64,000 nt of DNA from Octopus vulgaris (taxonomy: Eukaryota): NCBI GenBank assembly GCA_951406725.2, contig OX597824.1:37324001-37388000 (forward strand), in the 5' to 3' direction. Below the pieces are notes generated by a model that worked only from the letters and a program-made list of their open reading frames with translations, had not been told where the DNA came from and made no database searches. The stretch's first letter is position 1. Each line of letters starts with the position of its first letter. The position numbers and the translations under genes were made by a program. Below, piece after piece: positions 32,201 to 64,000 of the stretch.

Positions 32201-32734
32201 TGGTGAACTCTTGTTGATTATAATTTTGAGTAGAGACTGAAAACTTGATGAAGAAGGAGCATGAAATGCTGATGATTACACAGCAATATATCAATGAGTT
32301 GAGGGCATCAAATTTAAAGACATGTCTATATTGATATTTATATAAACATAGAGGGATAATGAAAGGGATAAGCAGTTGATGGAAATAAAACTCTTGCCTT
32401 CTTAACTGTTCAGAATGCAGATATAAAGATGTACATTATCATCATCATCATTTAACGTCCGTTGTCCATGCTGGCATGGATTGGACAGTTTGACCAGGGC
32501 TAGTAAGCTGGAAAGCTGCACCAGACTCCAGTCTGATTTAGCAGGGTTTTCTACAACTGGGTGCCCCTCCTAACACCGACCACTCTGAGAGTGTAATGGA
32601 TGCTTTTACAGGCTACTGGCACAGATGCCATTTGCATGACACCAGTATCTGCCACGACTGATTTTGCTCAGCTTGATGGATTTTCTTCTCAAGCACAACA
32701 TAATTCCAATGGTCTCAGTCATTATATCTGTGGG

Positions 32735-32998
32735 ACTCAATGCTCAAAAGGAACTCAGCCACTTTGCTTCTGTGAGGTGCAACACTCGAAAGGAACTCTA
32801 CCACTTTGCCTCCATGAGGCCCAATGCTCAAGAGAAACTTGACCACTTTGCCTCCATGAGGCCCAACGCTCAAAAGGAACTCAGCCACTTTGCCTCCATG
32901 AGGCCCAATGCTCAAAAGGAATTCGATCACTTTGCCTCCATGAGGCCCAACGCTCAAAAGGAACTCGGCCACTTTGCTTCCGTGAGGCCCAATGCTTG
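32735..32998. repeat. 42-bp minisatellite, about 6 units
   Basis: Unit ccactttgcctccatgaggcccaa(c/t)gctcaaaaggaactcag; explains the HFASMRPNAQKELS repeat ORF. Confidence 0.9.
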
Positions 32999-33039
32999 AA
33001 CAGTGCTCTTTATGTGACACCAACATTAACCATAACTAT

Positions 33040-39236: not shown

Positions 39237-39851
39237 TTTTTTTTTATGGCATTTATTTCCTTTCCTTGTCATTTTTAAAAGACTTATATGTCTCAAAATT
39301 TTGCTTTCTTTTAGCATAAATTCTAGTATGTACAGGTGGAGGAGGAGGTGTAATGGGATGTTATGGCACTGATGCCTTTCTAGAAGAGATAATATCATTA
39401 ATTATGGACTTACTGAAAGTGTTACTTTTTCTTAAAACTACATTGACTCAATAAATTCTAAGTAAAATAATTAATTATATACAATACATTTATAATTTTC
39501 TCCTGCTGGTGGGGAAATCTATAATTTTTTTTTATGGCATTTATTTCCTTTCCTTGTCATTTTTAAAAAACTTATGTCTCAAAATTTCCTTTCCTTGTCA
39601 TTTTAAAAAAACTTATATGTCTCAAAATTTTGCTTTCTTTTAGCATAAATTCTAGTATGTACAGGTAGAAGAGGAGGTGTAATGGGCTGTTATGGCACTG
39701 ATGCCTTTCTAGAAGAGATAATACCATTAATTATGGACTTACTGAAAGTGTTACTTTTTCTTAAAACTACATTGACTCAATAAATTCTAAGTAAAATAAT
39801 TAATTATATACAATACATTTATAATTTTCTCCTGCTGGTGGGGAAATCTAT
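39237..39851. repeat. near-identical tandem duplication, unit about 290 bp
   Basis: tttttatggcatttatttcc...cctgctggtggggaaatctat occurs twice; the second unit carries an extra internal ~38-bp duplication. Confidence 0.9.
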
Positions 39852-41579: not shown

Positions 41580-41715
41580 TCCTCCGGAGTTACTGTTGCA
41601 GATGAAGTTTTAGACGCTTTTCAAGAAATCAAATTGAAGCATAAACATAGATATGTCATATTCAGACTATCCGAAGATTTAAAAAGTATTGTTGTGGAGG
41701 AGCGAGCTGAAAAGG
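41580..41715 (+). CDS. ADF/cofilin (actin-depolymerizing factor), coding exon 2
   Basis: Acceptor tttttttaaatttcag|TCC. Translates SSGVTVADEVLDAFQEIKLKHKHRYVIFRLSEDLKSIVVEERAEK+G, the typical ADF N-terminus. Donor AAGG|gtaagt. Starts in phase 0 just after the missing ATG, an intron position known in ADF/cofilin genes. Confidence 0.95.
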
Positions 41716-44808: not shown

Positions 44809-46175
44809 GTATTATATATCTGCTTGTCCTTCTTCATCATTTAATGTCCTTTTTCCATACTGGCATGGGTTGGAAGGTTTAACAGGAACCAATAAGCCAG
44901 AAGATTATATAGAACACCAGTGTCAGCTTTGCCGTGGTTTCTACACCCTGGATGCCTTTCTAGTGCACTTTACAGACTGTAATTGGTGGGTTTTTTTTTT
45001 CACAGCACCACCTAGTGAGTAACTTATCAAGTAACTTGCAACACAAGACCCTTCATCTATGTAAGGGGATTCCATTGAGAGAGGTAGCTTTGTGCTAATT
45101 GAATTGTACATGCATACATGTATGTGAATGTGTCATGAATGTTGAGTAATGACCGAAAGTGTACAATTGTGAATACAAGCAGTTGAAATAGGGCTCCTCT
45201 GAAGGATCTCTGGAGTAACATTGCTCAACAGGGTGTCTGCTTGAAGACGAAGTGGTCTCTCCACGTGAACTTTCCTTGACATCACAATTGAATATGTTGA
45301 GGGGTTTAATAAGTGTCATAAGTGCCACCCTGGCCATTTTTGAGGTTGGTATATTATTTTCTTTATCTCGATATCTAGAATCCCAAAAAGTTGGAAGAAC
45401 CAGTGTGGCTTGGACCAGAGAGTTTAGTAATACACCATCGTAAGCACACACACTCAATAAGTATTTCTGCGGTCCCTGTATCATTTTTGAAGTGTTATGG
45501 CTCATTTTCTAATATTTCTTGTTACCTTCATAACGATAATGGGTTATTATTTTACTATCTTGTCTTACTTCTTAAAGATACTTACCTTGGTATATAGAAA
45601 CACAAACTATACCTTTGGTGGGGGTCTCTGTATGTTTTTTTTTTTTTAGGTATTATGGCTAAAATATGCAATGCGATACACCGTTTCATAGCACCAGTAT
45701 ATTCTACAAAATAAGAAAGGCGCAGTCATTGTTTCATCCTTCTGATGCATACATAAAATAAATAATTTTATGGCGGTGGGATGATTAGAGGAGGTCTTCA
45801 CGGTCATTTTACGACCAAAATCAGCTTTCTAACTTCATTCCTTGCCAAGATATCGCATTCTGAAAGTTGCACAACTTTGTGTTTTTCTCGGTTTTATGTT
45901 GTGAAGCTTATGACAATCTGTTACTAAACACCTCAATTTTAAAATATTAATGTAAAATGTTAAGATAACAGTCTTGTATTTGCTGATACTGTTTTTTTTT
46001 TTTTTTGTTTTTTTTTGACAAAATTTACTATTTTAGAAAGTACCCCCATCGATATTTTCTTGTGGTCTTGATTATGTTGATTTGGTAGAATGGTGTGTTT
46101 TATTATTTTTACAGATGTTTATTTAAAAAAAAATAACTGTTTTATGACGTTAGGGTAAATTTAATGAACAAACAT

Positions 46176-46250
46176 TGCTACCATGTTGATGATTAGATCT
46201 TCCGAATCAGATGTTTTCTGATGTAAACTTTAATATGAAACATTGTAGCA
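46176..46250 (+). ncRNA. candidate intronic C/D-box snoRNA-like RNA, copy 1 of 3
   Basis: Terminal stem tgctaccatgtt/aacattgtagca. C-like TGATGA at 46187-46192, D'-like CAGA at 46208, C'-like cTGATGT, D-like ATGA at 46235-46238. Core conserved in three copies, sense to the host intron. Confidence 0.5.
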
Positions 46251-46368
46251 TTGATGAATAAATTTCATTAATTCTAAGTTTTAAGATTTTGAATAGAAAT
46301 AAAATATATTTTATAAAAGATGATGCTTTCATAACTGGTATATGTATTTCATTAGTATTATTATTATC

Positions 46369-47241
46369 TTCATCATTGTCGTTGACTATGTGCTACGTAT
46401 GTCAGTTGATACCATTTCTGGCAAGAGCTTTGAAATAAAACCTAGAAGAAGTTCCAGACACCCAGCTGAATACTTAACAGACACTGACTTTGCTGACGAC
46501 ATCGCTCTTATCAGTGATTCTCTCTCTAATGCCCAGTCTCTTTTACAATCTCTCGAACAAGCCTCAAATTGTGTAGGTCTTTACCTCAATGAGGGCAAGA
46601 CTGAATATGTAAACAAGTGCCTGTCCAACAGTGATTGCATCATCCATACTCTCAACAATACGCCCTTAAATATGGTTTCTGATTACAAATATCTTGGGTC
46701 ATCATCTGGAAAAGATTTTCTAACTATAAAGGGTATGGCCTGGTCAGCCTGTAATGATATGCTTAAGATCTGGTCATCAAATCTAAGTAGAGACTTAAAC
46801 TTAAAATCTTTAAAGCCACAGTCGAACTAATTCTACTATATGGCTCAGAAACCTGGACGTTATCAAAGAAGCTTGAGAGGCGGCTGGATGGAACCTACAC
46901 TCGCCTCCTTATGAGAGCTCAAAATCTCTCGTGGAAGCACCATCCAACCAAAATGCAAATATATGGGAAACTACCACCTGTGTCATCTTTTGTGAAAGGT
47001 AGGAGAGTCCAGTTTGCTGGACATTGTTGTAGAGCTGAAAACGAGGCAATTTCTACTCTCCTCTGGAAGCCATCTACTCACGATACCAGAGGGTGCACAC
47101 TCTCCTACCCTGATGTAATCTCCAGGGATACCGGCATCCAGCAACAGGACCTCCGTAATGCTATGATGGACTGTGCAGTCTGGCGTAGCATGGTAAATTC
47201 CATTGTCTCGACCACGGTCGATCAGTGATGATGATGATGAT
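46369..47241 (+). mobile_element. 5'-truncated RTE/RTEX-like LINE with (GAT)n tail and TSD
   Basis: LTDTDFADDIAL, GLYLNEGKTE, YKYLGS and LLYGSETW motifs. The ORF stop runs into tgatgatgatgatga. TSD tattattattatc at 46356-46368 and 47242-47254. Confidence 0.9.
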
Positions 47242-47399
47242 TATTATTATTATCAGAATATAATTTTGTGCATTATATAAACCGTATTGTGAAGTAAATA
47301 TGTATATATCTATATATATATATATAATGTATACACACACACACACGGTGTATATAGTAATATCTGCAAAAAATTCTTGACATCGGGATAAAATTCTTA

Positions 47400-47885
47400 A
47401 TAGAACTGTGCTTGAGAGAGCTATTATGCTAAGCATGTATGCTTTCCTGAGCAAATTCTTACTATGGTGAAGGGAGCATGTAGTACATATGCCCAGCTCC
47501 AGGCTCACTAAACATCTCCTGTGGTCGACTAGCAATTGTCTCGTGGTCAAGTGGTGGACCAAACAGGATATGTAAAGACCCTCTCAAGACCACCTTGAAA
47601 AAGTGTAACATAGAGCTGCCTACTTGGGAGCATCTTGTTTGGGATTGCTCCCTGTGGTGTAGTACTGTGTACTCTGGTGTACAGCACTTTAAATCTGATG
47701 CGACCAGAGAAACTAAAGAGAGGAGGGCTGCAGGGAAAGCAAATCTCACTGGGTCCTGTCTCTGCTATTATGTGTTCCTATTGTAATTGCAGATTCCATG
47801 CCTAAATTGGCCTAATAAGCTACCACAAAACTAACATAGTGTAAAGCTGATAATCTGGTCATCTTCAGAGACATGAAGGACAAAG
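47400..47885 (+). mobile_element. RTE-type LINE 3' fragment
   Basis: Degenerate LRW.GHV..M...RL.K.LL and GGP...KD.LK..LKK motifs followed by a terminal Cys/His region. Confidence 0.6.
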
Positions 47886-48769
47886 CTAATGATCTGTGTG
47901 TATATTATATATGTGTTTGTGTGGTGTGTGTGTATGTATATGATATATATGTATGTATATAGGTGCAGCAGTGGCTGTGTGGTAAGTAGCTTGCTTACCA
48001 ACCACATGGTTCCGGGTTTAGTCCTACTGTGTGGCACCTTGGGCAAGTGTCTTCTACTGTAGCCTCGGGCCGACCAAAGCCTTGTGAGTGGATTTGGTAG
48101 GTGGAAACTGAAAGAAGCCCTTCGTATATACATATATATATATGTGTGTGTGTTTGTGTGTCTGTATTTGCCCCACCCCCACATTGCTTGATTCCCGGTG
48201 CTGGTGTGTTTACATCCCCATAACTTAGTGCTTTGGCAAAAGAGACCGATAGAATAAGTACTAGGCTTACAAAGAACAAGTCCTGGGGTTGATTTGCTCA
48301 ACTAAAAGGCAGTTCTCCAGCATGGCCGCAGTCAAATGACTGAAACAAGTAAAAGAATAAATATCTATATAAAACAACGGATGTCTGTGTATGTTACATG
48401 TATACATTTCCAGAGTTTTCAACCAATTTTCTCCAAACTTTACACACACACACGCACACATTACTTATGTGCTAAGGATAATCACGCACTATAACTTTTT
48501 TGCCCAGAGCTCCCGGATAAAGTAAGAAATCAGGAAAAAAAAGGTGTTTTACACAGGTTTTTCTCTAACAACTGCAGTTTTCAACTGAATCTCTCCTTCT
48601 CGTTCTCTGTTTCTCTTGCTTACATATATTCTCTCTCGCCCTCTGTAATAGTTCCTCTCTTTCCTTCCTTTCTTTCTTTCTCCCTCCCTCTTTCTTTCCT
48701 TCCTTCTGAGTTGAAACAATTCAGCAATAGCATTACGGGAAGAACAAACAGTAGGAAGGAACTAGACTA

Positions 48770-50583
48770 GTTTCAAGTGGGTATAGAATGATGAGAAGCA
48801 GGATGAATTCCAACATTTCCTTTATTGCTCTTATAGAATTAACCTCCCCCTCCGTCTCCTCCACATCACCTGTTTCCTGCAAAACCTCCATGTGCTGCTG
48901 CATCTGTAACTCCTTTAGCTCTTCTGTTGTCAGTTCCTTGGAGTGGTCCTCAATGAGCTTATTGATGTCACCTTCATCCACGTCCAGGCCCATGGACTTG
49001 CCAAGAGATACAATCTCCTCCACCACTGCCGCTTCAGGTTCGAGTCTTTCAAACTCTGTTTCAGACTCAACTTCAGTCCACAGCTTCTTCCACGCAGAGG
49101 TGAAGGTCGTCTTTGTAACACCCTGTCAGGCCATGTCGATAATTCTGAGACATATCTTGATGTCATAGTGGTTCTTCCAGAACTTTCGAAAGGTGAGGTC
49201 TTTGCTCTCTGTCACCTCAAAGCAGCAACAGAAGAGGTGCTTAGTGAAGAGCTTCTTGAAATTAGAAATCTCCTGCTGATCCATGGACTGCAATAGGGGT
49301 GGTGTTGAGTGGAAGGTAGAGAACCTTTATAAACTCGAACTCTTTGAGGCTAGGTGGGTGAGTAGGTCCATTGTCCAGGATGAGAAGGGCTTGCATTGAT
49401 AGGTTATTTTCCTGGAGATATTTCCTAAAGTCAGGACCAAAGACCAAATTCACCCACTCCACACCCTTGGTCTTGCCTTCCACATAACCGGCAGTTTTCC
49501 TTTGAGAATCTTCTGTGACTTAAAGGCTCTGGTGTTTTCCAAATGCTAAACTAGCAGCAGCTTAATATTGCATTGGTGCACAGTGGGAGTGTTTGCCTAT
49601 CTTTCATGGGTTTGTGGTCTGGCATTCTCTTCTCCTCTGCTGTTGTATATGTCCTCTTTGACATCTTCTTCCGAAAAAGACCTGTCTCATCACATTTGAA
49701 AATTTGCTGGGGGATGTATCCTTCGGCTGCTATAATTCTGGCAAAGGTTTAGAGGTAATCTTCAGTTGCCTTCATATCTACCCTCACTACCTCACCATGC
49801 CAGTCCTGTTATTAAAATTCTCGAACCAACACCAACTGGCTTTTAAACAGCTTGCCTGATGCCTCGTCCAGACAAGTGTCTGGGGTCTGATGCAGCAAAT
49901 CAGCATAAATAGCTTGTGCATTCTCACAGATTATAGCCTCTGTCATGGTATCCCCTGCAAGCTGCTTCTCGCAGCTTCTCCATATTTTCATGGATAGATG
50001 TTTGCTCTTTAGAAATTGTTTTAACACCCTTGGCTGACATTATAGCCTTTATTGACTCCTGCTTTAGTATGGTGCAGATCGAAGTGCTACGCTTGTACTG
50101 CTTTGCCATGTTGACTACCCGCACTCATTGGTCATGTTTTCTGATAATTCCATTCAATGCACATCATCCACTTCTTCTTCTCACCACTGTCTTTTGCACT
50201 CACTTTCTTTGGACCCATGGTTGGAAAAACAAAGTTTTGTAAAATAACTGCAAGCACAACACATGCGTCTGTAGCCTACAACGACCAAGTAAGCATTTTA
50301 CCACCTGTCTAACTAGTGTGCATGTCTGTCTAGCTATCATCTATTAATGATCTTGGCACTTGCTAACATGCATGTCTGTCTAGCTATCAACTGAGACGCG
50401 AGATGCTGGACAGATATTACAGCATTCACTGTGGCGTTTGCTATGCCAACTAGTGGTGGAGTATCTGAAGCTGACTCGTAACCTGAATTTTAGCTTGCAA
50501 CTCGAAGCAAAAAATCAGCCAAGAGTCGGCTGTTATCTTGGAAAACTCGTTGGTTGGGACTCTCGTAAGTCAAGTTACCACTG
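48770..50583 (-). mobile_element. degenerate Tigger/pogo DNA transposon
   Basis: CENP-B HTH-like (STSICTILKQ, GDTMTEAIICE.A) and DDE_1-like (LLILDNGPTHP, VLYLPLNTT, MDQQ.ISNFKK) remnants; TA|cagtggtaacttgacttacgag terminus at 50583. Confidence 0.85.
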
Positions 50584-50797
50584 TATGTATGTGTATATAC
50601 TCTTTACTCTCTTTTACTTGTTTCAGTCATTTGACTGTGGCCATGCTGAAGCACCACATTTATTCGAGCAAATCGACCCCAGGACTTATTCTTTGCAAGC
50701 CTAGTGCTTATTCTATCAGTCTCTTTTGCCAAACCGCTAGTAAACACACCAGCATCGGTTGTCAAGCGATGTTGGGAGGACAAACACAGACACACAA

Positions 50798-50845
<48 letters not shown>

Positions 50846-52107
50846 GACAGGCTTCTTTCAGTTTCCATCTACCAAATCCCTTCACAAGGCTTTGGTTGGC
50901 CTGAGGCTATAGTAGAAGACACTTGCCCAAGGTGCCATGCAGTGGGACTGAACCCGGGACCATGTGGCTCGTAAGCAAGCTACTTACCACACAGCCACTC
51001 CTACGTCTATATATATGGCTCTACATACTACCAGGTTCAGTCTTGGGGAATGTAGAACCATCTGTTATTCATTATTGTTCCTGGGTCTACTGTGACTTGG
51101 AGTAGTAGCACCTGTCAGGGTCCTAACTTGGGTTAATTAGTATGCCATGGAAGAAAGTCCAAGCACAAATCCTCACTATCTCACGAGTACTGTAGGAAAG
51201 GAAAAAGTTAAGGGTGACAATCTTTACATAAAACAAAGGATTGGAGTCCCTCAGGCAGTCCATTGCCCACTTTTGCACCCTTCCAACAACTTCAGTGTTG
51301 GTAGATCCCTCCCACCATGTAAGTTTTCTGTAGGAGAAGGCCACTCCAGTGTAAAACCTACAGCATGCTGGTCACTATCTTGGCCTGCTGAACCACTGTG
51401 GTCAGACGTCGAAGTCTGAAGAGTGGGATTGGATTACTTGGACTAACTTTCATTTTGAAACTACTAAGCACAGGCAGGATGAAAAGCCCAGGAGCAAATG
51501 CAAGGGGCTGAAACGGGGCTCCTTCAAAGGATCATTTGAGTAATACTACTTGACAGGGTGTGTAGCGCAGAGGTCATGGGTTCTCTCTAGGTCAGTTGGT
51601 TACTTCTCTGCATTGAGAGGTCCCAGCTTTGGTATTATGGACATGTGATTAAGATGTTGTATGAAAGAATCACCAGACAAATTTCTTCAAGCAAAGCCAG
51701 CTGACAGGAGACCTAGAGGTAGAAAAAGAATGAGACGATCAGATAATATCCATTGTCTCAGATGATCATGTTCAGGAATTCAGCTGGAAAGTAATCACGG
51801 TTGCTTCTGATAGGACACTATGGCAGGAGTGCCTGAGGCTTCTAGTCCCATGATACTCCTATGAATAGTAGATGGATGGACTTGTGTGTGTGTGTTCAGG
51901 TAAACCTTAATTTGTGTTGTTGTGAATGCATTAATTTAAGCAATCTATGCAATATATGAAAGATTAACAGCTGTTTTTAAGAACCTCCTGTATCTTTTAA
52001 CTAATGTACCTTTCATTTCTTTCTTTCTCTGTCTTCAATGAGGAAAATTTACTTTAACTAAAAAGTAGCTATTTTATACTGTTATGGTAAATTTAACGAA
52101 CAAATGT

Positions 52108-52182
52108 TGCTACGATGTTGATGATTAAATCTTCCGAATCAGATGTTTTCTGATGTAAACTTTAATATGAAACATTGTTGCA
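52108..52182 (+). ncRNA. candidate intronic C/D-box snoRNA-like RNA, copy 2 of 3
   Basis: Same core ttgatgattaaatcttccgaatcagatgttttctgatgtaaactttaatatgaaacattgt; terminal stem tgctacgatgtt/aacattgttgca. Confidence 0.5.
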
Positions 52183-54830
52183 TTGATGAAAAAACCTCAT
52201 TGATTCTAGAATTTAGGATTTTAATTAGAAATAAAATACCTTTTCTTATCTGGTAAGTGTATTTTGTTAGTATTATTATTAGAGCATAATAATTTTATAC
52301 ATTGACATAAATTGACTTATATAGTAGTTAGTGCACTATATAACATACAGATTGTACTACATGTGTGCATGTCTGTACGTATATATTTGTGAGTTCATCA
52401 TCATCATCTTGTTCCATTTAATGTTTATCTTCCGACAGAATATCTGCTTTGGCATGGTTTCTGCAACTGGTTAACCTTCTTAATGTCAACCTCTTTTACA
52501 GGGTATACTGGGTGCTTTTTTTCATGGCATCAGCATCAGGGAGCTTACCAAGTAACTTGCAGGGCAAGATCCCTAAGCTAAGGTGAATGATAGTATTGAG
52601 TGAGGTGGCTTTGTGCTACTTGTGCGTGTGTGCACACACACAATGTCCTGGGTATGACATTAACTCAAGCATTCTGATTCTGTCAAATGTAATGCTTATA
52701 TATTCACAAGACTGGAGCCTGGTGCAGCCTTCTGGCTTCCCAGATCCCCGGTCGAACCGTCCAACCCATGCTAGCATGGAGAACGGATGTTAAACGATGA
52801 TGATGATGATGATGATTATTTTGAATTATTCATGCATTATCTTGCAGCTTTGAAACTTCAGCGATGTGATTGGTTATTTCGAGAATGCCATTATAGTGTA
52901 GGTATAAAAGGCCAGACCTGGCCAATTTGGACATAAAACCAGAAGAATATTTGGGCTGGATATGGCCGGTTTAAATGCTAAATGGTTGAACTACATCCAG
53001 TGGTGAGGCTCCAGTTCTGGAGTTGAGCGGGGCGTGGAGTCACATCTTGATTAACTGTTATTCCCAAGTCCATTCTGAACAGGAATAGTAGTGCTTGCCA
53101 GGGTCTCATTTATAGGTTAACCCGTTAGCATTTAATCCAGCCATTTCTGGCCCAAATATTCTATGTTTTATGTTAAGACTGACCAGATCCAACCCCTCAC
53201 ACCTACCCTACAATGTCAATCTAAAAATATACAAACACACCATTGAAACTTCAAACTGATGAGATAATGCTTGATGATTCCAAAACATTGTGGATAAATA
53301 AATATTACATTTCACAAAGAAATCTGAATTCTAAAGGGTTAAATATAATCCCCAGAAGTAGTAGAGGTTTTGACTTTTTTTTTTTTTTTTAGTAAAGCCC
53401 TGGGGAAACACCTCTCTTAGGGGACAGATTATCTAACATAAAGCTTGCAGACAAAATAACAGCAGTCATCTTGCAATGGTTGTCACTGCCAGCAAGAGAA
53501 TGGCAAAAGTGTTGTGCAAGCTGTTGTCACTTAAATCCAATGACGTACAGATGTCTCTCTTGATTTGGCTATCTGACAAGATGTGGCAACCATTATATAT
53601 ATATATGTCTCTATGTTTATATATATATATATATGTGTGTGTGTATGTAGACATGTCTTCTGATATGTATACATGTGTCTGTGTACATATATATATGTAC
53701 ATCTTGGGAAGGTTATATAAAATGCGTCATGATGTATTCGAACAATTTGAGTTGAAGGAAAAGAACAGTAAATAGAACTACATCCCACTACAAAGACACA
53801 CTTTGCCTGATCCCAGGCAAAATCAAAATCATCAATGCCGCCACTGTAACTTCATAACAAAATCCATATGCGGGCTGAAATTACATTCATGCATCCATTG
53901 CAAATAGAAGTAGTGTTTTTTTTTGTTTCTTTCTCTTTAAGTCCTCTCCTTCACCAACGGGAATAACCATATCTGACATTTGGCATGGTTTTTATGGCTG
54001 GATGCTTTTGGTAACACCAACCATTCTAATGAGTGTACTGGGTGCTTTTTACATGGCTCCGGCAACAGTAAGGTCACCAAGTAACTTGCAAGACAAGACC
54101 CCCTCAGCTGAGTGGAGAGTAGTTTTATAGGGAGTTTTGTGCCAGGTGATGAAAAGATAACATGACAGGAGGACAGAAACAGGCATCTTGCAGTAGAAAC
54201 AATATGTGGCTACCCAGGTGGAAAAGGAGAGAAAGTGATAAAAATGTTAGGATATACTTTCAAATTAAAGGAAGGGTATATATGTGGTACAGATGGGATT
54301 GAGTGGGCAGGTAAGTTCACGAGAGTGCAAAAGGAGAGAAGACAGAGGGGAGGGGAATGCAGTTTGTGGTGAATATGAGTGGATGGGAGGGGTGTTAGGA
54401 AGATAGGTAGTGCCGGGGAGAGGTTTGTCATGGACAAATTGTGTGCAAGACATAGGTATGAACGACATGCCTTTTAGGCTTCAATTTTACTTAGAAGGAA
54501 AGTGTCTTCTCAAGCAGAGCAAATCGTTAATCATCTTTGTTCTTTGTTATCACCTCTGTGGGGCTCAACATCTGAAGCTTATTTTTCAATACTTCTTTCG
54601 ATGTTTTCCTGAGTCTTTATCTTATATACTCAGGTAAATTTTTGGGATGTGTGGTATTTTCTAAACAGAATGTGTGCAGAAAGTTTGTGTGTGTTGTTGT
54701 TGTGAATGCATTAATTTAGGCAATATATGCAACATATGTAAGATTAACAACTGTTTTTAAGAACCTGCTGTGTCTTTAACTAATGTAGTTTTTACTTCTC
54801 TCTTTGTTCATTGAGAAAAGTTACTACTTT

Positions 54831-56327
54831 ACAATTAAGTGTAAATGATTTCTGATAATGTAGGTTCCTGAAGATTGCTCTTAAGATCCAGAAAACAGCC
54901 CAGGTTTTTCGTGGCTGATACCCTCACATCCTTAATCAAGAAAGCCCTACAATCTGGTCAAACCATGCAATTGGGATCAAGTATTTTATTTTGCTCTGCT
55001 GACTCTTTATCTCCCCAAAACTGCTACTGATTAAGGTGGCCTGTCAACAACAACCCTAGCCAGGACTAACATCTTGTCCTTCGGGCTGATGCCTATATCT
55101 AGCATCTGAACATGTTGTACTCAGCCCATTCTCGATCCTGCAGACCTCCAACCCTGACACCAGCTCAAAGTATCTATGTGACTGTTTATGCCAAACTCAT
55201 CGAGGGCCATGTCTCAGTAAGTGTCAGAGTAGTTGCCTTTGACAGCGCTGTCCTCCATCTTAGCAAAGAGGTCTGACTGCCCACTGACTCAAACATCTTG
55301 AGCTACCTGCAGATCTGAAACTCATACCATCACCTGACCTTCAGTTGCTGTGTATGGCCTTGAGAAAGACATTCTTTCTGCTCTGAGGTCTTTAACTGCC
55401 AGTAGCGACAGAGATGTTGGCAGTTTCTGATCCAGTCACCTTACAGTCTTGCTGTCACCACTCACTGCTGAAGCTGAGTGCATTTACAGGACCCTGGACC
55501 CTAATCCTCGAGGCCTCTTCTTTTCAGTTCACTAATTGCTCTCGAGAAGGGCAAGGGCATACTCCCCATTGCTGTGGGCAATGTCTTTCGGAGACTCACA
55601 GCCAAAGTCATCTGCAGCTGTGTTGCATTCAAACCAGGTGAGAAACTCAGCCCAGTACAGCTGGATGTTGGCATAGACAGTAGGTGTGAGGGAGCTGCTC
55701 ATGCCACTAGACTCCGCTCTTAACAAAGCTCTGGCTGCCTTTAACAAGATTATAAAGCATGGCCTAGATGCCACAGGCTTCCCTTTCCATCTCAAGCTAG
55801 TGGGACTAGACCAGCGGGACAATAAAAGGCCAGATGGTATGACATTTTTCCATTCCCTGGCAGTAGACCCCTTATTGAGGATGTCGAAACTACTGCCAGT
55901 GGCAACTTGGTGTTGTCAGCTACTATTGCAGGTGCCACTGTTCATTTGGCTGAGAAAAGCAAACTGTCATGGTATCAGTCACTCTCCCACAGGTTTATGG
56001 CCAAGCCTGTGGCAGTTGAGACCTCTGGCATTCTTGGCCTCTGGACCGCTATTGGGGTCGAAATTGCTACCTGCAAATGAGCCCCACAAGTCAGAGTGGC
56101 TGTTCCAGCCCATCTTCCTCACTTTCCTCCAGGGCATTTTGTCTGCTGATGCCGTGAGAAATGTTTTTATATTGTCAGTGGCTTACTTACCTGATGGAAA
56201 TAGCGGGCAAATCTCCCTCCCTCAAGTTGTAACAGCTACTTTGGGAGAGGAATGCCACATTTAAGAAATAACCAAACAGATAAGCATAGTAATATTTCTA
56301 CACACTAATAAGTACCCCTTAGTTATT
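54831..56327 (+). mobile_element. degenerate, internally deleted CRE-clade-like (restriction-like endonuclease) non-LTR retrotransposon
   Basis: ILPIAVGNVFRRLTAKVI (about 55559), LSPVQLDVG...CEGAAHATR (about 55646) and DNKRPDGMT (about 55818). Boundaries inferred from interruption of the duplicated intron unit. Confidence 0.7.
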
Positions 56328-56366
56328 GTAACTATTTTATGCTGTTATGGTTTAATGAACAAATGT

Positions 56367-56441
56367 TTCTACAATATTGATGATTAAATCTTCCGAATCA
56401 GATGTTTTCTGATGTAAACTTTAATATGAAACATTGTAGCA
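56367..56441 (+). ncRNA. candidate intronic C/D-box snoRNA-like RNA, copy 3 of 3
   Basis: Core identical to copy 2; terminal stem ctacaatatt/aacattgtag. Confidence 0.5.
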
Positions 56442-57404
56442 TTGATGAATAAATTTCATTAATTCTTGGATTTAAGATATTAGAAATAAAATAAATTTTA
56501 TAGAAGGTGATGCTTTCATAACTGGTAAATGTAATTTATTAGTATTTTTGTTTATTAGAGTATAATAATTCCATATATTGGTGCAAAATGTTCTTCACAA
56601 TTGCTGGTGGAACAGATCCAACTTTTGTTCTCATAGAAATATTATTTATCAAATAAACATTAAATTATTTATTTGATGCCATTGCTGTCTGACTTGCTCC
56701 TGTACTAGTGGCATGTGAAAAGCACCATTTGAGTGTGGTCAATTCCAATGCCACCTGACTGGACCCCGTCCTGGTAGCACATAAAAAGCACCCACTACAT
56801 TCTCTGAGTGTTTGGTGTTAAGAAAGGCATCCAGCTGTAGAAACCTTGTCTGATTAGATTGGAGCCTGGTGTAGCTGCCTGGCTTGCCAGTCCTGGGACA
56901 AACCATCCAACCCATGCCAGCATGGAAAGCAGATGTTAAACAATGATGACGATGTCTTTGCTGATTCCACTTCGCCCTTCCTTCTATGGATTTCTCAATG
57001 TGATCAGTTTTTGTAATTTGATTATCTTGTTTTATTGATCTTTAAATGGTCTCCCCATCAACAATGGAACTGGAATTCTTAAATACTAAGTCTTAATTTT
57101 CATTTTAATGGAATTATATCCTAAGAATGAGATTTCTAAAAATTTCTCTAAAATACATCAGTGAGTAATTGTTCATGTTGGTATGTTGATGTCAAACTTG
57201 GAACTTGTTGATTATTCCATAATATTAAGATTACCTTTTTTTCTTTTTTTTCTCGATGATCTATTAACGATAGTGTGTCATTATAACTTTTAGGAAACTC
57301 AGAGTTTAGATATAGTAGAATGTTCAGCTTTTATATTTCTTCTGTCCAGATTATCTGAAATGTCTTTTCACCAGTTGTTTTCCATTTTATTTTATTTTCT
57401 GAAG

Positions 57405-57534
57405 ATAAAACGTACCAAGATTTTGTCGAGAAACTTCAATGTGCTGCTGGAAACCATCAGTGTCGTTATGGAGTTTTTGATATGGAATACAAACATAATG
57501 ATATGTGTAGACAAAAGTTGGCCTTCTTTTTATG
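57405..57534 (+). CDS. ADF/cofilin, coding exon 3
   Basis: Acceptor ttattttctgaag|AT; G+AT gives Asp. Translates (D)KTYQDFVEKLQCAAGNHQCRYGVFDMEYKHNDMCRQKLAFFL+TG, with the CRYxVFD and KxxFxxW ADF motifs. Donor TG|gtaagt. Phases fit exons 2 and 4. Confidence 0.95.
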
Positions 57535-63442: not shown

Positions 63443-63605
63443 GAGTCCAGAGTGTGCTACAATAAAACAGAAAATGATATATACAAGCAGTAAGGCTTGT
63501 CTCAAGTCAAAACTTCAGGGAGTTGGTGTTGAAATTCAAGCAACAGATGATTCTGAATTGGAACAGACAGTTGTTTTAGAGAAGTGTCGTGACAAATCAC
63601 AATGA
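63443..63605 (+). CDS. ADF/cofilin, last coding exon
   Basis: Long poly-T tract then ag|G; TG+G gives Trp. Translates (W)SPECATIKQKMIYTSSKACLKSKLQGVGVEIQATDDSELEQTVVLEKCRDKSQ*, with the WSPxxAxxKxKMxYxSSK and EIQATD motifs. Stop TGA at 63603-63605. Confidence 0.95.
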
Positions 63606-64000
63606 TATTCATGGCCTGAACTCTTCCAACCACCTTCAGCACAAATTGTCTTCTACTTATTATTTTTTTAATATTTTCTTTGATCTAAATTTTAATGTAA
63701 ACTTGCTGCCATAACTGCAAAATACCAAAACTATTTAGACTCCTACTACAAGAATTTTAACTTTCTATTTCAACAATTCATTGATTCATTTGAAAAAATG
63801 TTACTGGTGCCTTTGAACTACTGGCAATGTCGACACAATGAGTTACCAATACCAAAAAACCTCCTGGTGGAAAACTCATTGCAATTATTTCAGGATAATA
63901 ACAGCAACCACAATGATAGCAATACTGGCACAGATATACGAATTTGTAGATTAGTTAAACAATTAATTGTATTTGGTAAATTGTTTGAAAGCAAATCAAC
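63606..64000 (+). other. cofilin 3' UTR (partial, probably runs off the window)
   Basis: Non-repetitive AT-rich sequence after the stop codon; no AATAAA seen before the window end. Confidence 0.6.

What the first reader, a model, noticed from the sequence alone, without database searches (positions are those of the whole stretch)
46176..56441. Triplicated, near-invariant structured ~75-nt element in cofilin intron 2: candidate orphan C/D snoRNA or small-RNA cluster
Seen: three sense copies (46176-46250, 52108-52182, 56367-56441), 4-6 kb apart. Their 61-nt core ttgatgatta(a/g)atcttccgaatcagatgttttctgatgtaaactttaatatgaaacattgt differs at one base, and that change keeps pairing (attaaa or attaga with tttaat, A-U to G-U). 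The duplicated flanks carry many substitutions, indels and two retroelement insertions. The element folds into a 10-12 bp terminal stem closing TGATGA and ATGA, plus an inner atcaga/tctgat stem. Established: a terminal stem with RUGAUGA and CUGA, plus internal D' and C' boxes, defines intron-encoded C/D snoRNAs, and cytoskeletal or housekeeping genes can host them. Inference: this is a functional RNA under purifying selection with a non-canonical D box (AUGA) and D' box (CAGA). A pri-miRNA-like hairpin of about 35 bp is the alternative; coleoids have many lineage-specific miRNAs, but the 8x6 internal loop argues against it. I do not recognise the family.
Basis: partly seen in the sequence, partly recalled or inferred. 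Interest (0 to 1): 0.85.

Follow-up and report, generated by a model that had tools for sequence, protein, structure and literature searches.

The report
SNORD50-like rRNA guide in cofilin intron
Three near-identical short stretches in one intron of a cofilin gene carry the boxes of a small nucleolar RNA and match this animal's own large ribosomal RNA at a guanosine that humans, frogs and flies methylate, so they likely encode an ordinary methylation guide of the SNORD50 kind rather than an orphan RNA or a microRNA.

Summary
Observation confirmed: three sense copies, the only three found in the genome. From box C to box D, 1 of 53 columns varies, against 34 of 154 in the duplicated flanks. The core is kept in four other organisms.

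The element is not an orphan. The 9 nt at -2 to -10 from the D' box (CAGA) pair Watson-Crick with the genome's own 28S rRNA, and the +5 base is G2545. That base corresponds to human Gm2876/2863 (SNORD50), Xenopus Gm2398 and fly Gm2243 (Me28S-G2173). The guide differs from the Rfam SNORD50 guide at -7 and -9, the two places where this 28S departs from the Rfam consensus, and both changes restore pairing.

Against: the duplex is short (17 of 150 shuffled spacers score as well), the boxes are non-canonical, SNORD50 scores 14.8 bits against a cut-off of 42, and expression and methylation are untested. A microRNA or transposon is not supported. The scan's index held no look-alike of this sequence.

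Verdict: a new member of a known kind, a single-guide counterpart of SNORD50.

The parts
46173..46253 (+). Copy 1: snoRNA precursor hairpin. The mature RNA is predicted at about 46182-46243 (about 60 nt; ends inferred).
46186..46195 (+). Copy 1 box C region, two possible registers: UUGAUGA 46186-46192 or AUGAUUA 46189-46195
   Evidence: the SNORD50 model aligns its box C to the second register
46198..46206 (+). Copy 1 D' guide, 9 nt at -2 to -10. It pairs with own 28S 2542-2550, and the +5 base is G2545 (L008 position 5409, - strand).
46208..46211 (+). Copy 1 box D' (CAGA)
   Evidence: sequence
46218..46224 (+). Copy 1 box C' (UGAUGU at 46219-46224)
   Evidence: sequence
46235..46238 (+). Copy 1 box D (AUGA, non-canonical)
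   Evidence: sequence
52105..52185 (+). Copy 2: box C region 52118-52127, guide 52130-52138, D' 52140-52143, C' 52150-52156, D 52167-52170
56364..56444 (+). Copy 3: box C region 56377-56386, guide 56389-56397, D' 56399-56402, C' 56409-56415, D 56426-56429; weakest terminal stem
46118..46366 (+). Duplicated block around copy 1; its homologues are 52048-52304 and 56328-56580
51915..52056 (+). Extra upstream block shared by copies 2 and 3 (homologue 54695-54831, 83%), separated from copy 3 by about 1.5 kb of inserted DNA
41580..41715 (+). Cofilin exon 5' of the host intron
57405..57534 (+). Cofilin exon 3' of the host intron; the 3' splice site lies 11,167, 5,235 and 976 nt from the three D boxes
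63443..63606 (+). Last cofilin coding exon

Best explanation
The three copies carry C, D', C' and D boxes and a 9-nt stretch complementary to this genome's own 28S rRNA, and they likely encode paralogues of one box C/D snoRNA of about 60 nt that is predicted to guide 2'-O-methylation of 28S G2545, the equivalent of human Gm2876/2863. Shown: the boxes, the conservation, the pairing and the identity of the site. Inferred from how C/D snoRNPs work: the copies are transcribed with the cofilin pre-mRNA; Snu13 binds the C/D kink-turn held by the long terminal stem; NOP56, NOP58 and fibrillarin join; the RNA is trimmed from the excised intron; the D' guide pairs with 28S 2542-2550 and fibrillarin methylates the base opposite the fifth nucleotide before D'. 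The 10-nt spacer before box D is likely structural and not a guide.
For: (1) Nine of 9 Watson-Crick pairs at -2 to -10 from D', with a mismatch at -1. It is the best fixed-register site in own 18S, 5.8S, 28S, U2 and U6 (score 9; next 7.3 for copy 1 and 7.7 for copies 2 and 3) and is the same in 2 of 2 rDNA units read. (2) The +5 base is a G lying 39 nt 3' of a U, the spacing of human Um2837 to Gm2876 and yeast 1888 to 1927. That G is methylated in human (SNORD50), Xenopus and fly (Me28S-G2173, 63 nt, fibrillarin-dependent) (PMC11014333 Tables S3, S4, S6). (3) The Rfam SNORD50 consensus places its D' guide on the same site in the same register, and cmscan aligns box C, guide, D' and C' collinearly with the element. 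(4) Own 28S departs from the Rfam LSU consensus at the two bases opposite -7 and -9; the guide departs from the SNORD50 consensus guide at the same two places. Own guide on own 28S has 0 mismatches; the SNORD50 guide on own 28S has 2; own guide on the LSU consensus has 1 mismatch and 1 G-U. (5) The guide is unchanged in 3 of 3 copies and 4 of 4 runs from other organisms; differences are listed at 3 of 53 core positions against 23 of 134 flank positions (46134-46185, 46239-46320; counted). (6) 13 of 17 weak Rfam matches to copy 2 are C/D families, all on the + strand. (7) No SNORD50 over cut-off and no other C-box RNA with this guide turned up in the genome. (8) AUGA D boxes and 7-15 bp duplexes occur in expressed Dictyostelium C/D RNAs (PMC8817022).
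Against: The duplex is 9 bp, under the 10-21 nt usually cited. Its length alone is not significant: 100 of 5,040 permutations of the 9-mer match somewhere, and 17 of 150 shuffled spacers reach the same score. The case rests on where it lands (my rough joint estimate 0.11 x 109/7,700, about 0.002). Points 1 and 4 are not independent. No Rfam family reaches its cut-off. Box C and box D each deviate from consensus, and neither kink-turn register is fully canonical. In a free duplex scan, copy 1 pairs slightly better with 5.8S (-14.2 against -13.3 kcal/mol), although not next to D' and not in copies 2 and 3. Copy 3 does not fold better than shuffles. The four runs were found by shared 31-mers, which favours conserved stretches. 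Expression and methylation were not measured.
Confidence: 0.87

Rival explanations
1. A C/D-type RNA whose 28S match is chance or a relic, and whose present job is another one (a different target, or capping longer intron-derived RNAs).
For: The duplex is only 9 bp, and 17 of 150 shuffles score as well. The boxes are degenerate. The four bases 46225-46228 and the loop 46212-46217 are invariant although the guide model does not need them. Three copies share one intron.
Against: The match falls on a listed methylation site in the SNORD50 register and follows two lineage-specific rRNA changes; a relic guide would be expected to lag behind the rRNA.
Confidence: 0.07
2. Neutral intronic duplication whose core was made uniform by gene conversion; no RNA.
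For: Tandem copies can be converted. No pair shows a double change among the 3 copies. Copy 3 folds no better than shuffles.
Against: The same core is kept in 4 of 4 runs from other organisms while the flanks change. The conserved stretch coincides with the boxes and with a guide to a known site.
Confidence: 0.03
3. A lineage-specific microRNA cluster (three pri-miRNA hairpins).
For: Hairpin of about 80 nt in three intronic copies; a weak match to mir-1305 (14.9 bits against a cut-off of 63).
Against: The 22-nt arms next to the terminal loop have only 12 of 22 bases paired, with 8x6 and 4x4 internal loops. Conservation covers the loop and the boxes, not two arms. No miRNA family reaches its cut-off.
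Confidence: 0.02
4. Part of a dispersed transposon.
For: The intron is full of repeats.
Against: Only 3 matches in the 2.8-Gb genome by DNA search and by pattern. A model of the element finds no further + strand copy in 84 kb. The tool warns that counts of repeats are lower bounds.
Confidence: 0.01

Closest known systems
SNORD50A/B (U50; Rfam RF00278), guide for human 28S Cm2861/2848 and Gm2876/2863
   Same: D' guide right after box C; same target G in the same -2 to -10 register with an unpaired -1; 7 of 9 guide bases identical to the Rfam consensus; collinear C, guide, D', C'.
   Different: 14.8 bits against a cut-off of 42. D' is CAGA and D is AUGA. No second guide: the base equivalent to Cm2861 is U in own 28S. 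About 60 nt against a 72-position model. Host is cofilin (the human host, SNHG5, is recalled and not checked).
Drosophila snoRNA:Me28S-G2173 (CD49, FBgn0086028)
   Same: Same 28S site (Gm2243), the only target listed, similar length (63 nt), intronic in a protein-coding gene (PMC11014333 Tables S4, S6).
   Different: Canonical AUGAUGA and CUGA boxes; host RpS16; one gene listed for the site. I did not see its sequence, so homology is untested.
sno-lncRNAs (SNORD116; Snord33/34 in Rpl13a)
   Same: Two or more snoRNA units left in one excised intron (PMC8162545 section 5, PMC7038934 passages).
   Different: No long RNA is shown here, and hidden exons between the copies were not excluded.

Membership tests
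Box C/D snoRNA | Box C (RUGAUGA) near the 5' end | tested here: inconclusive
   One deviation in either register: UUGAUGA or AUGAUUA
Box C/D snoRNA | Box D (CUGA) near the 3' end | tested here: inconclusive
   AUGA in 3 of 3 copies, UUGA in one contig of run X8; AUGA is a documented minor D box in Dictyostelium
Box C/D snoRNA | Kink-turn: tandem G-A/A-G pairs, U-U pair, 3-nt bulge, stems I and II | tested here: met
   G-A, A-G and U-U in both registers. Register 2 has a 3-nt bulge abutting stem I, with U-A in place of G-C. Register 1 has a G-A mismatch followed by 6 pairs but no abutting stem I. By sequence only.
Box C/D snoRNA | Terminal stem | tested here: met
   14 pairs, 90.5% of cells paired
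Box C/D snoRNA | Internal D' and C' boxes | tested here: met
   CAGA and UGAUGU, invariant in 3 of 3 copies and 4 of 4 runs
Box C/D snoRNA | Antisense element with the +5 base on a methylation site | tested here: met
   9 bp to own 28S; +5 is G2545, equivalent to human Gm2876 and fly Gm2243. Methylation in this organism not measured.
Box C/D snoRNA | Sense position in an intron of a host gene | tested here: met
   Between cofilin exons 41580-41715 and 57405-57534
Box C/D snoRNA | Accumulates as a discrete RNA bound to Snu13, NOP56/58 and fibrillarin | not testable with these tools
   Only assembled contigs were available; they show no RNA ends
SNORD50 (RF00278) | Covariance-model score at or above 42 bits | tested here: not met
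   14.8 bits, E 0.66
SNORD50 (RF00278) | D' guide for the Gm2876/2863 site | tested here: met
SNORD50 (RF00278) | Second guide for Cm2861/2848 | tested here: not met
   Own 28S has U at that place; the D spacer's best site is elsewhere and weak
microRNA | Hairpin with a well-paired 22-nt duplex next to the loop | tested here: not met
   12 of 22 paired on each loop-adjacent arm; at most 17 of 22 in any window, farther from the loop
microRNA | Mature and star reads with 2-nt offsets | not testable with these tools
   No raw small-RNA reads were offered
Dispersed transposon | Many copies across the genome | tested here: not met
   3 matches, all in this intron

The most novel reading that the evidence does not exclude
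Three snoRNP-forming units lie in one 15.7-kb intron, 1-11 kb from its 3' splice site, against the usual one-per-intron rule of animals. Trimming from the two ends would leave 4.3, 6.0 or 10.3-kb RNAs with a snoRNA at each end: sno-lncRNAs in an invertebrate, from a cytoskeletal gene. The unit also uses a kink-turn in which both boxes have changed together (U-A in place of the conserved G-C of stem II). It would be the mollusc orthologue of SNORD50, making the Gm2876 guide ancestral to bilaterians.
Probability: 0.15. Interest if true: 0.6.

Novelty: new member of a known kind. Interest (0 to 1): 0.28.

Why it matters
It names a probable rRNA methylation guide in an animal group for which my paper searches found no snoRNA catalogue, and one that Rfam misses. 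It is a small, clean case of a guide following two changes in its own rRNA target. With human, frog and fly it suggests that methylation at the Gm2876 site, which yeast, Arabidopsis and Dictyostelium lack, is old in animals while the guide has changed host gene. The mechanism itself is textbook; the open points are how three copies are released from one intron and which kink-turn register is used.

Tried and rejected
Rfam at cut-off: 0 matches in the window; only weak matches on the element. The best weak match, SNORD37 (19.3 bits against 45), is rejected: its guide is not present.

D-side guide: the best site is 18S A855, 6+2 pairs split by a mismatch. By my count this is human 654, which is not among the sites listed between 644 and 668 in PMC11014333 Table S4. 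Not supported.

A 10-nt U2 match overlaps D' and the loop, not a guide position. U1, U4, U5, minor snRNAs, tRNAs and mRNAs were not searched as targets.

A longer snoRNA using the downstream UUGAUGA (46251) as C': that motif is changed in run X8 and no conserved D box follows. An upstream box C at 46162 is broken in copy 2. SECIS (definition recalled): the place is intronic and the helix is only 6 bp; rejected by inspection.

Metagenome pattern scan: 119 loci, 0 of 119 with C' and D boxes following, so chance matches.

Expression: no RNA holder listed; the four runs laid are contigs and show no ends. This is no evidence either way.

Supplements of PMC9699675 (cephalopod microRNAs): 0 hits in 4 files. 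I did not see that these files list miRNA sequences, so the blank is uninformative; MirGeneDB could not be searched.

Paper searches for the fly gene name in main texts gave 0. A genome-wide search with my own RNA model was not available, so diverged paralogues elsewhere are not excluded. The earlier notes of the scan that came up concern other snoRNAs in other genomes and gave no lead.
Full report
Observation. They sit in duplicated blocks of 232-261 nt that are 79-87% identical. From box C to box D (46186-46238) 1 of 53 columns varies, against 34 of 154 ungapped flank columns (Fisher p 1.7e-4). Because I chose the core after seeing it, I also ran a scan statistic: 105 of 20,000 shuffles had any 53-column window this conserved. 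A DNA search and a pattern search of the 2.8-Gb genome gave the same three places and no others; the tool notes that such counts are lower bounds. The host is cofilin: three exons read in one frame and each matches Pfam Cofilin_ADF. I did not find the ATG exon, so the intron number is unverified.

Other organisms. Fourteen public runs from 8 studies and 6 organism codes share words with the stretch. I laid 4 of the 14, one each from organisms B, D, E and F. Within box C to box D the differences listed were 46196 G>A in all four (so the G of copy 1 is the odd one) and, in one contig of depth 5 from X8, 46233 A>G and 46235 A>T. The guide and the D' and C' boxes were unchanged. In the flanks 46134-46185 and 46239-46320, 23 of 134 positions were listed, plus three short deletions. 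In X11 one 64-nt contig spans 46183-46246 at about three times the depth of its flanking contigs, as expected if three identical cores collapse. The runs were found by exact 31-mers, which favours a conserved core, and all are contigs, so they say nothing on expression.

Anatomy. In copy 1: terminal stem 46173-46187/46239-46253; box C region 46186-46195; a 6-bp helix 46192-46197/46229-46234; D' CAGA 46208-46211; C' UGAUGU 46219-46224; D AUGA 46235-46238. Copies 1 and 2 fold better than shuffles (z -3.54, -3.06); copy 3 does not (-0.73). No pair shows a double change among three copies, so the fold is not proven by covariation. Rfam has no match at cut-off; 13 of 17 weak matches to copy 2 are C/D families on the + strand.

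The kink-turn can be drawn two ways. With box C as UUGAUGA, stem II is G-A, A-G, U-U, a G-A mismatch, then six pairs, but the terminal stem does not abut a 3-nt bulge. With box C as AUGAUUA, a 3-nt bulge abuts the terminal stem and stem II is G-A, A-G, U-U, U-A, A-U: the deviant box C and the deviant box D restore a pair where G-C is usual. The SNORD50 model aligns to the second register. The one-sided changes at 46196, 46233 and 46235 fit the first better. I cannot decide between them.

Target. I took 18S, 5.8S, 28S, U2 and U6 from the same genome. The nine bases 46198-46206, at -2 to -10 from D', pair Watson-Crick with 28S 2542-2550, with a mismatch at -1; the +5 base is G2545. It is the top fixed-register site (score 9, next 7.3-7.7) and is identical in 2 of 2 rDNA units read. 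Length alone proves little: 100 of 5,040 permutations of the 9-mer match somewhere, and 17 of 150 shuffled spacers score 9.

What matters is the place. The Rfam SNORD50 consensus has its D' guide on the same stretch of the LSU consensus in the same register. Table S4 of PMC11014333 lists this site as human Gm2876/2863 (SNORD50), Xenopus Gm2398 and fly Gm2243, unmethylated in yeast, Arabidopsis and Dictyostelium, 39 nt 3' of Um2837; own 28S has a U 39 nt 5' of G2545. With 109 human sites in about 7,700 nt, my rough joint chance is about 0.002.

Guide and target have moved together. Own 28S departs from the LSU consensus at the bases opposite -7 and -9. The guide departs from the SNORD50 consensus guide at -7 and -9 and nowhere else in -2 to -10. 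Own guide on own 28S: 9 of 9 pairs. SNORD50 guide on own 28S: two mismatches. Own guide on the LSU consensus: one mismatch and one G-U. This restates the perfect match at a homologous site and is not a second independent test, but a relic would not be expected to show it. The second SNORD50 target has no counterpart: the base 15 nt upstream is U, and the 10-nt spacer before box D has only a 6+2 match to 18S A855, which by my count is human 654, not a listed site. One result against: in a free duplex scan copy 1 pairs slightly better with 5.8S (-14.2 against -13.3 kcal/mol), but away from D' and not in copies 2 and 3.

Mechanism. Shown: boxes, selection on the core, the duplex and the site. Inferred from established C/D biology (D+5 rule and protein set as stated in PMC11014333 and PMC8162545): co-transcription with cofilin, Snu13 binding, assembly with NOP56, NOP58 and fibrillarin, trimming to about 60 nt, methylation of G2545. 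Short duplexes and AUGA boxes are within the range seen in Dictyostelium (7-15 bp; PMC8817022); papers on a 9-bp core and a 10-nt limit I saw only as titles in a reference list. The copies lie 976, 5,235 and 11,167 nt from the 3' splice site. That snoRNAs far from splice sites rely on long outer stems is recalled, not checked. Animals typically have one snoRNA per intron (PMC7038934), so release of three needs internal cuts or unseen splicing; otherwise sno-lncRNAs would result. This is untested.

Comparison and novelty. It works like the D' half of SNORD50 and like fly Me28S-G2173 (63 nt, in RpS16). It is not filed as a SNORD50 member: 14.8 bits against 42 and no second guide. No SNORD50 over cut-off exists in the genome by family search (64 candidates scored), and no second C-box RNA with this guide was found, so these three copies are the likely guides for the site. 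Common descent with SNORD50 is plausible from the collinear layout but unproven. Paper searches found no report of a cephalopod snoRNA set or of cofilin as a snoRNA host (20 of 66 listings seen; 8 of 8; 0); most subscription journals are outside that library.

Papers seen. PMC11014333: passages, supplement rows and one part. PMC8817022: passages and one section. PMC8162545: passages and one section. PMC8677024, PMC7038934, PMC6984369: passages. PMC9699675: supplement search only.

Verdict. A real, conserved element; a box C/D methylation guide for a known rRNA site at about 0.87; new member of a known kind; interest 0.28.

Noticed in passing
window 46335-46343, 52250-52258, 56522-56530: A 5' splice-site-like motif (CTG then GT; a consensus GTAAGT in copy 2) is kept 83-100 nt 3' of box D in all three duplicated flanks. 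It may be left over from the duplication or mark unannotated splicing.
   Followed up: no
window 46396-47230: 3' fragment of a LINE directly after copy 1 (RVT_1, E 8e-6), ending in short tandem triplets.
   Followed up: partly
window 48700-50250 (- strand): Decayed DNA transposon with a weak DDE_1 match (E 0.019) between copies 1 and 2.
   Followed up: partly
window 54832-56327: About 1.5 kb inserted into the upstream flank of copy 3, splitting the block it shares with copy 2. Broken frames look retroelement-like by recall; no Pfam match.
   Followed up: partly
L004-L008 (own rDNA): The 18S (about 2,640 nt) and 28S (about 4,890 nt) are long and depart from the Rfam consensus in conserved stretches. 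The base equivalent to human Am668 (U36/snR47 site) is G in 4 of 4 18S copies read. Guides in this lineage may often escape Rfam for this reason.
   Followed up: no
window 32689-33024: Tandem array of six or more 42-nt units (family D7).
   Followed up: no
window 39240-39850: Local tandem duplication of about 300 nt upstream of the cofilin exon at 41580, seen by eye.
   Followed up: no
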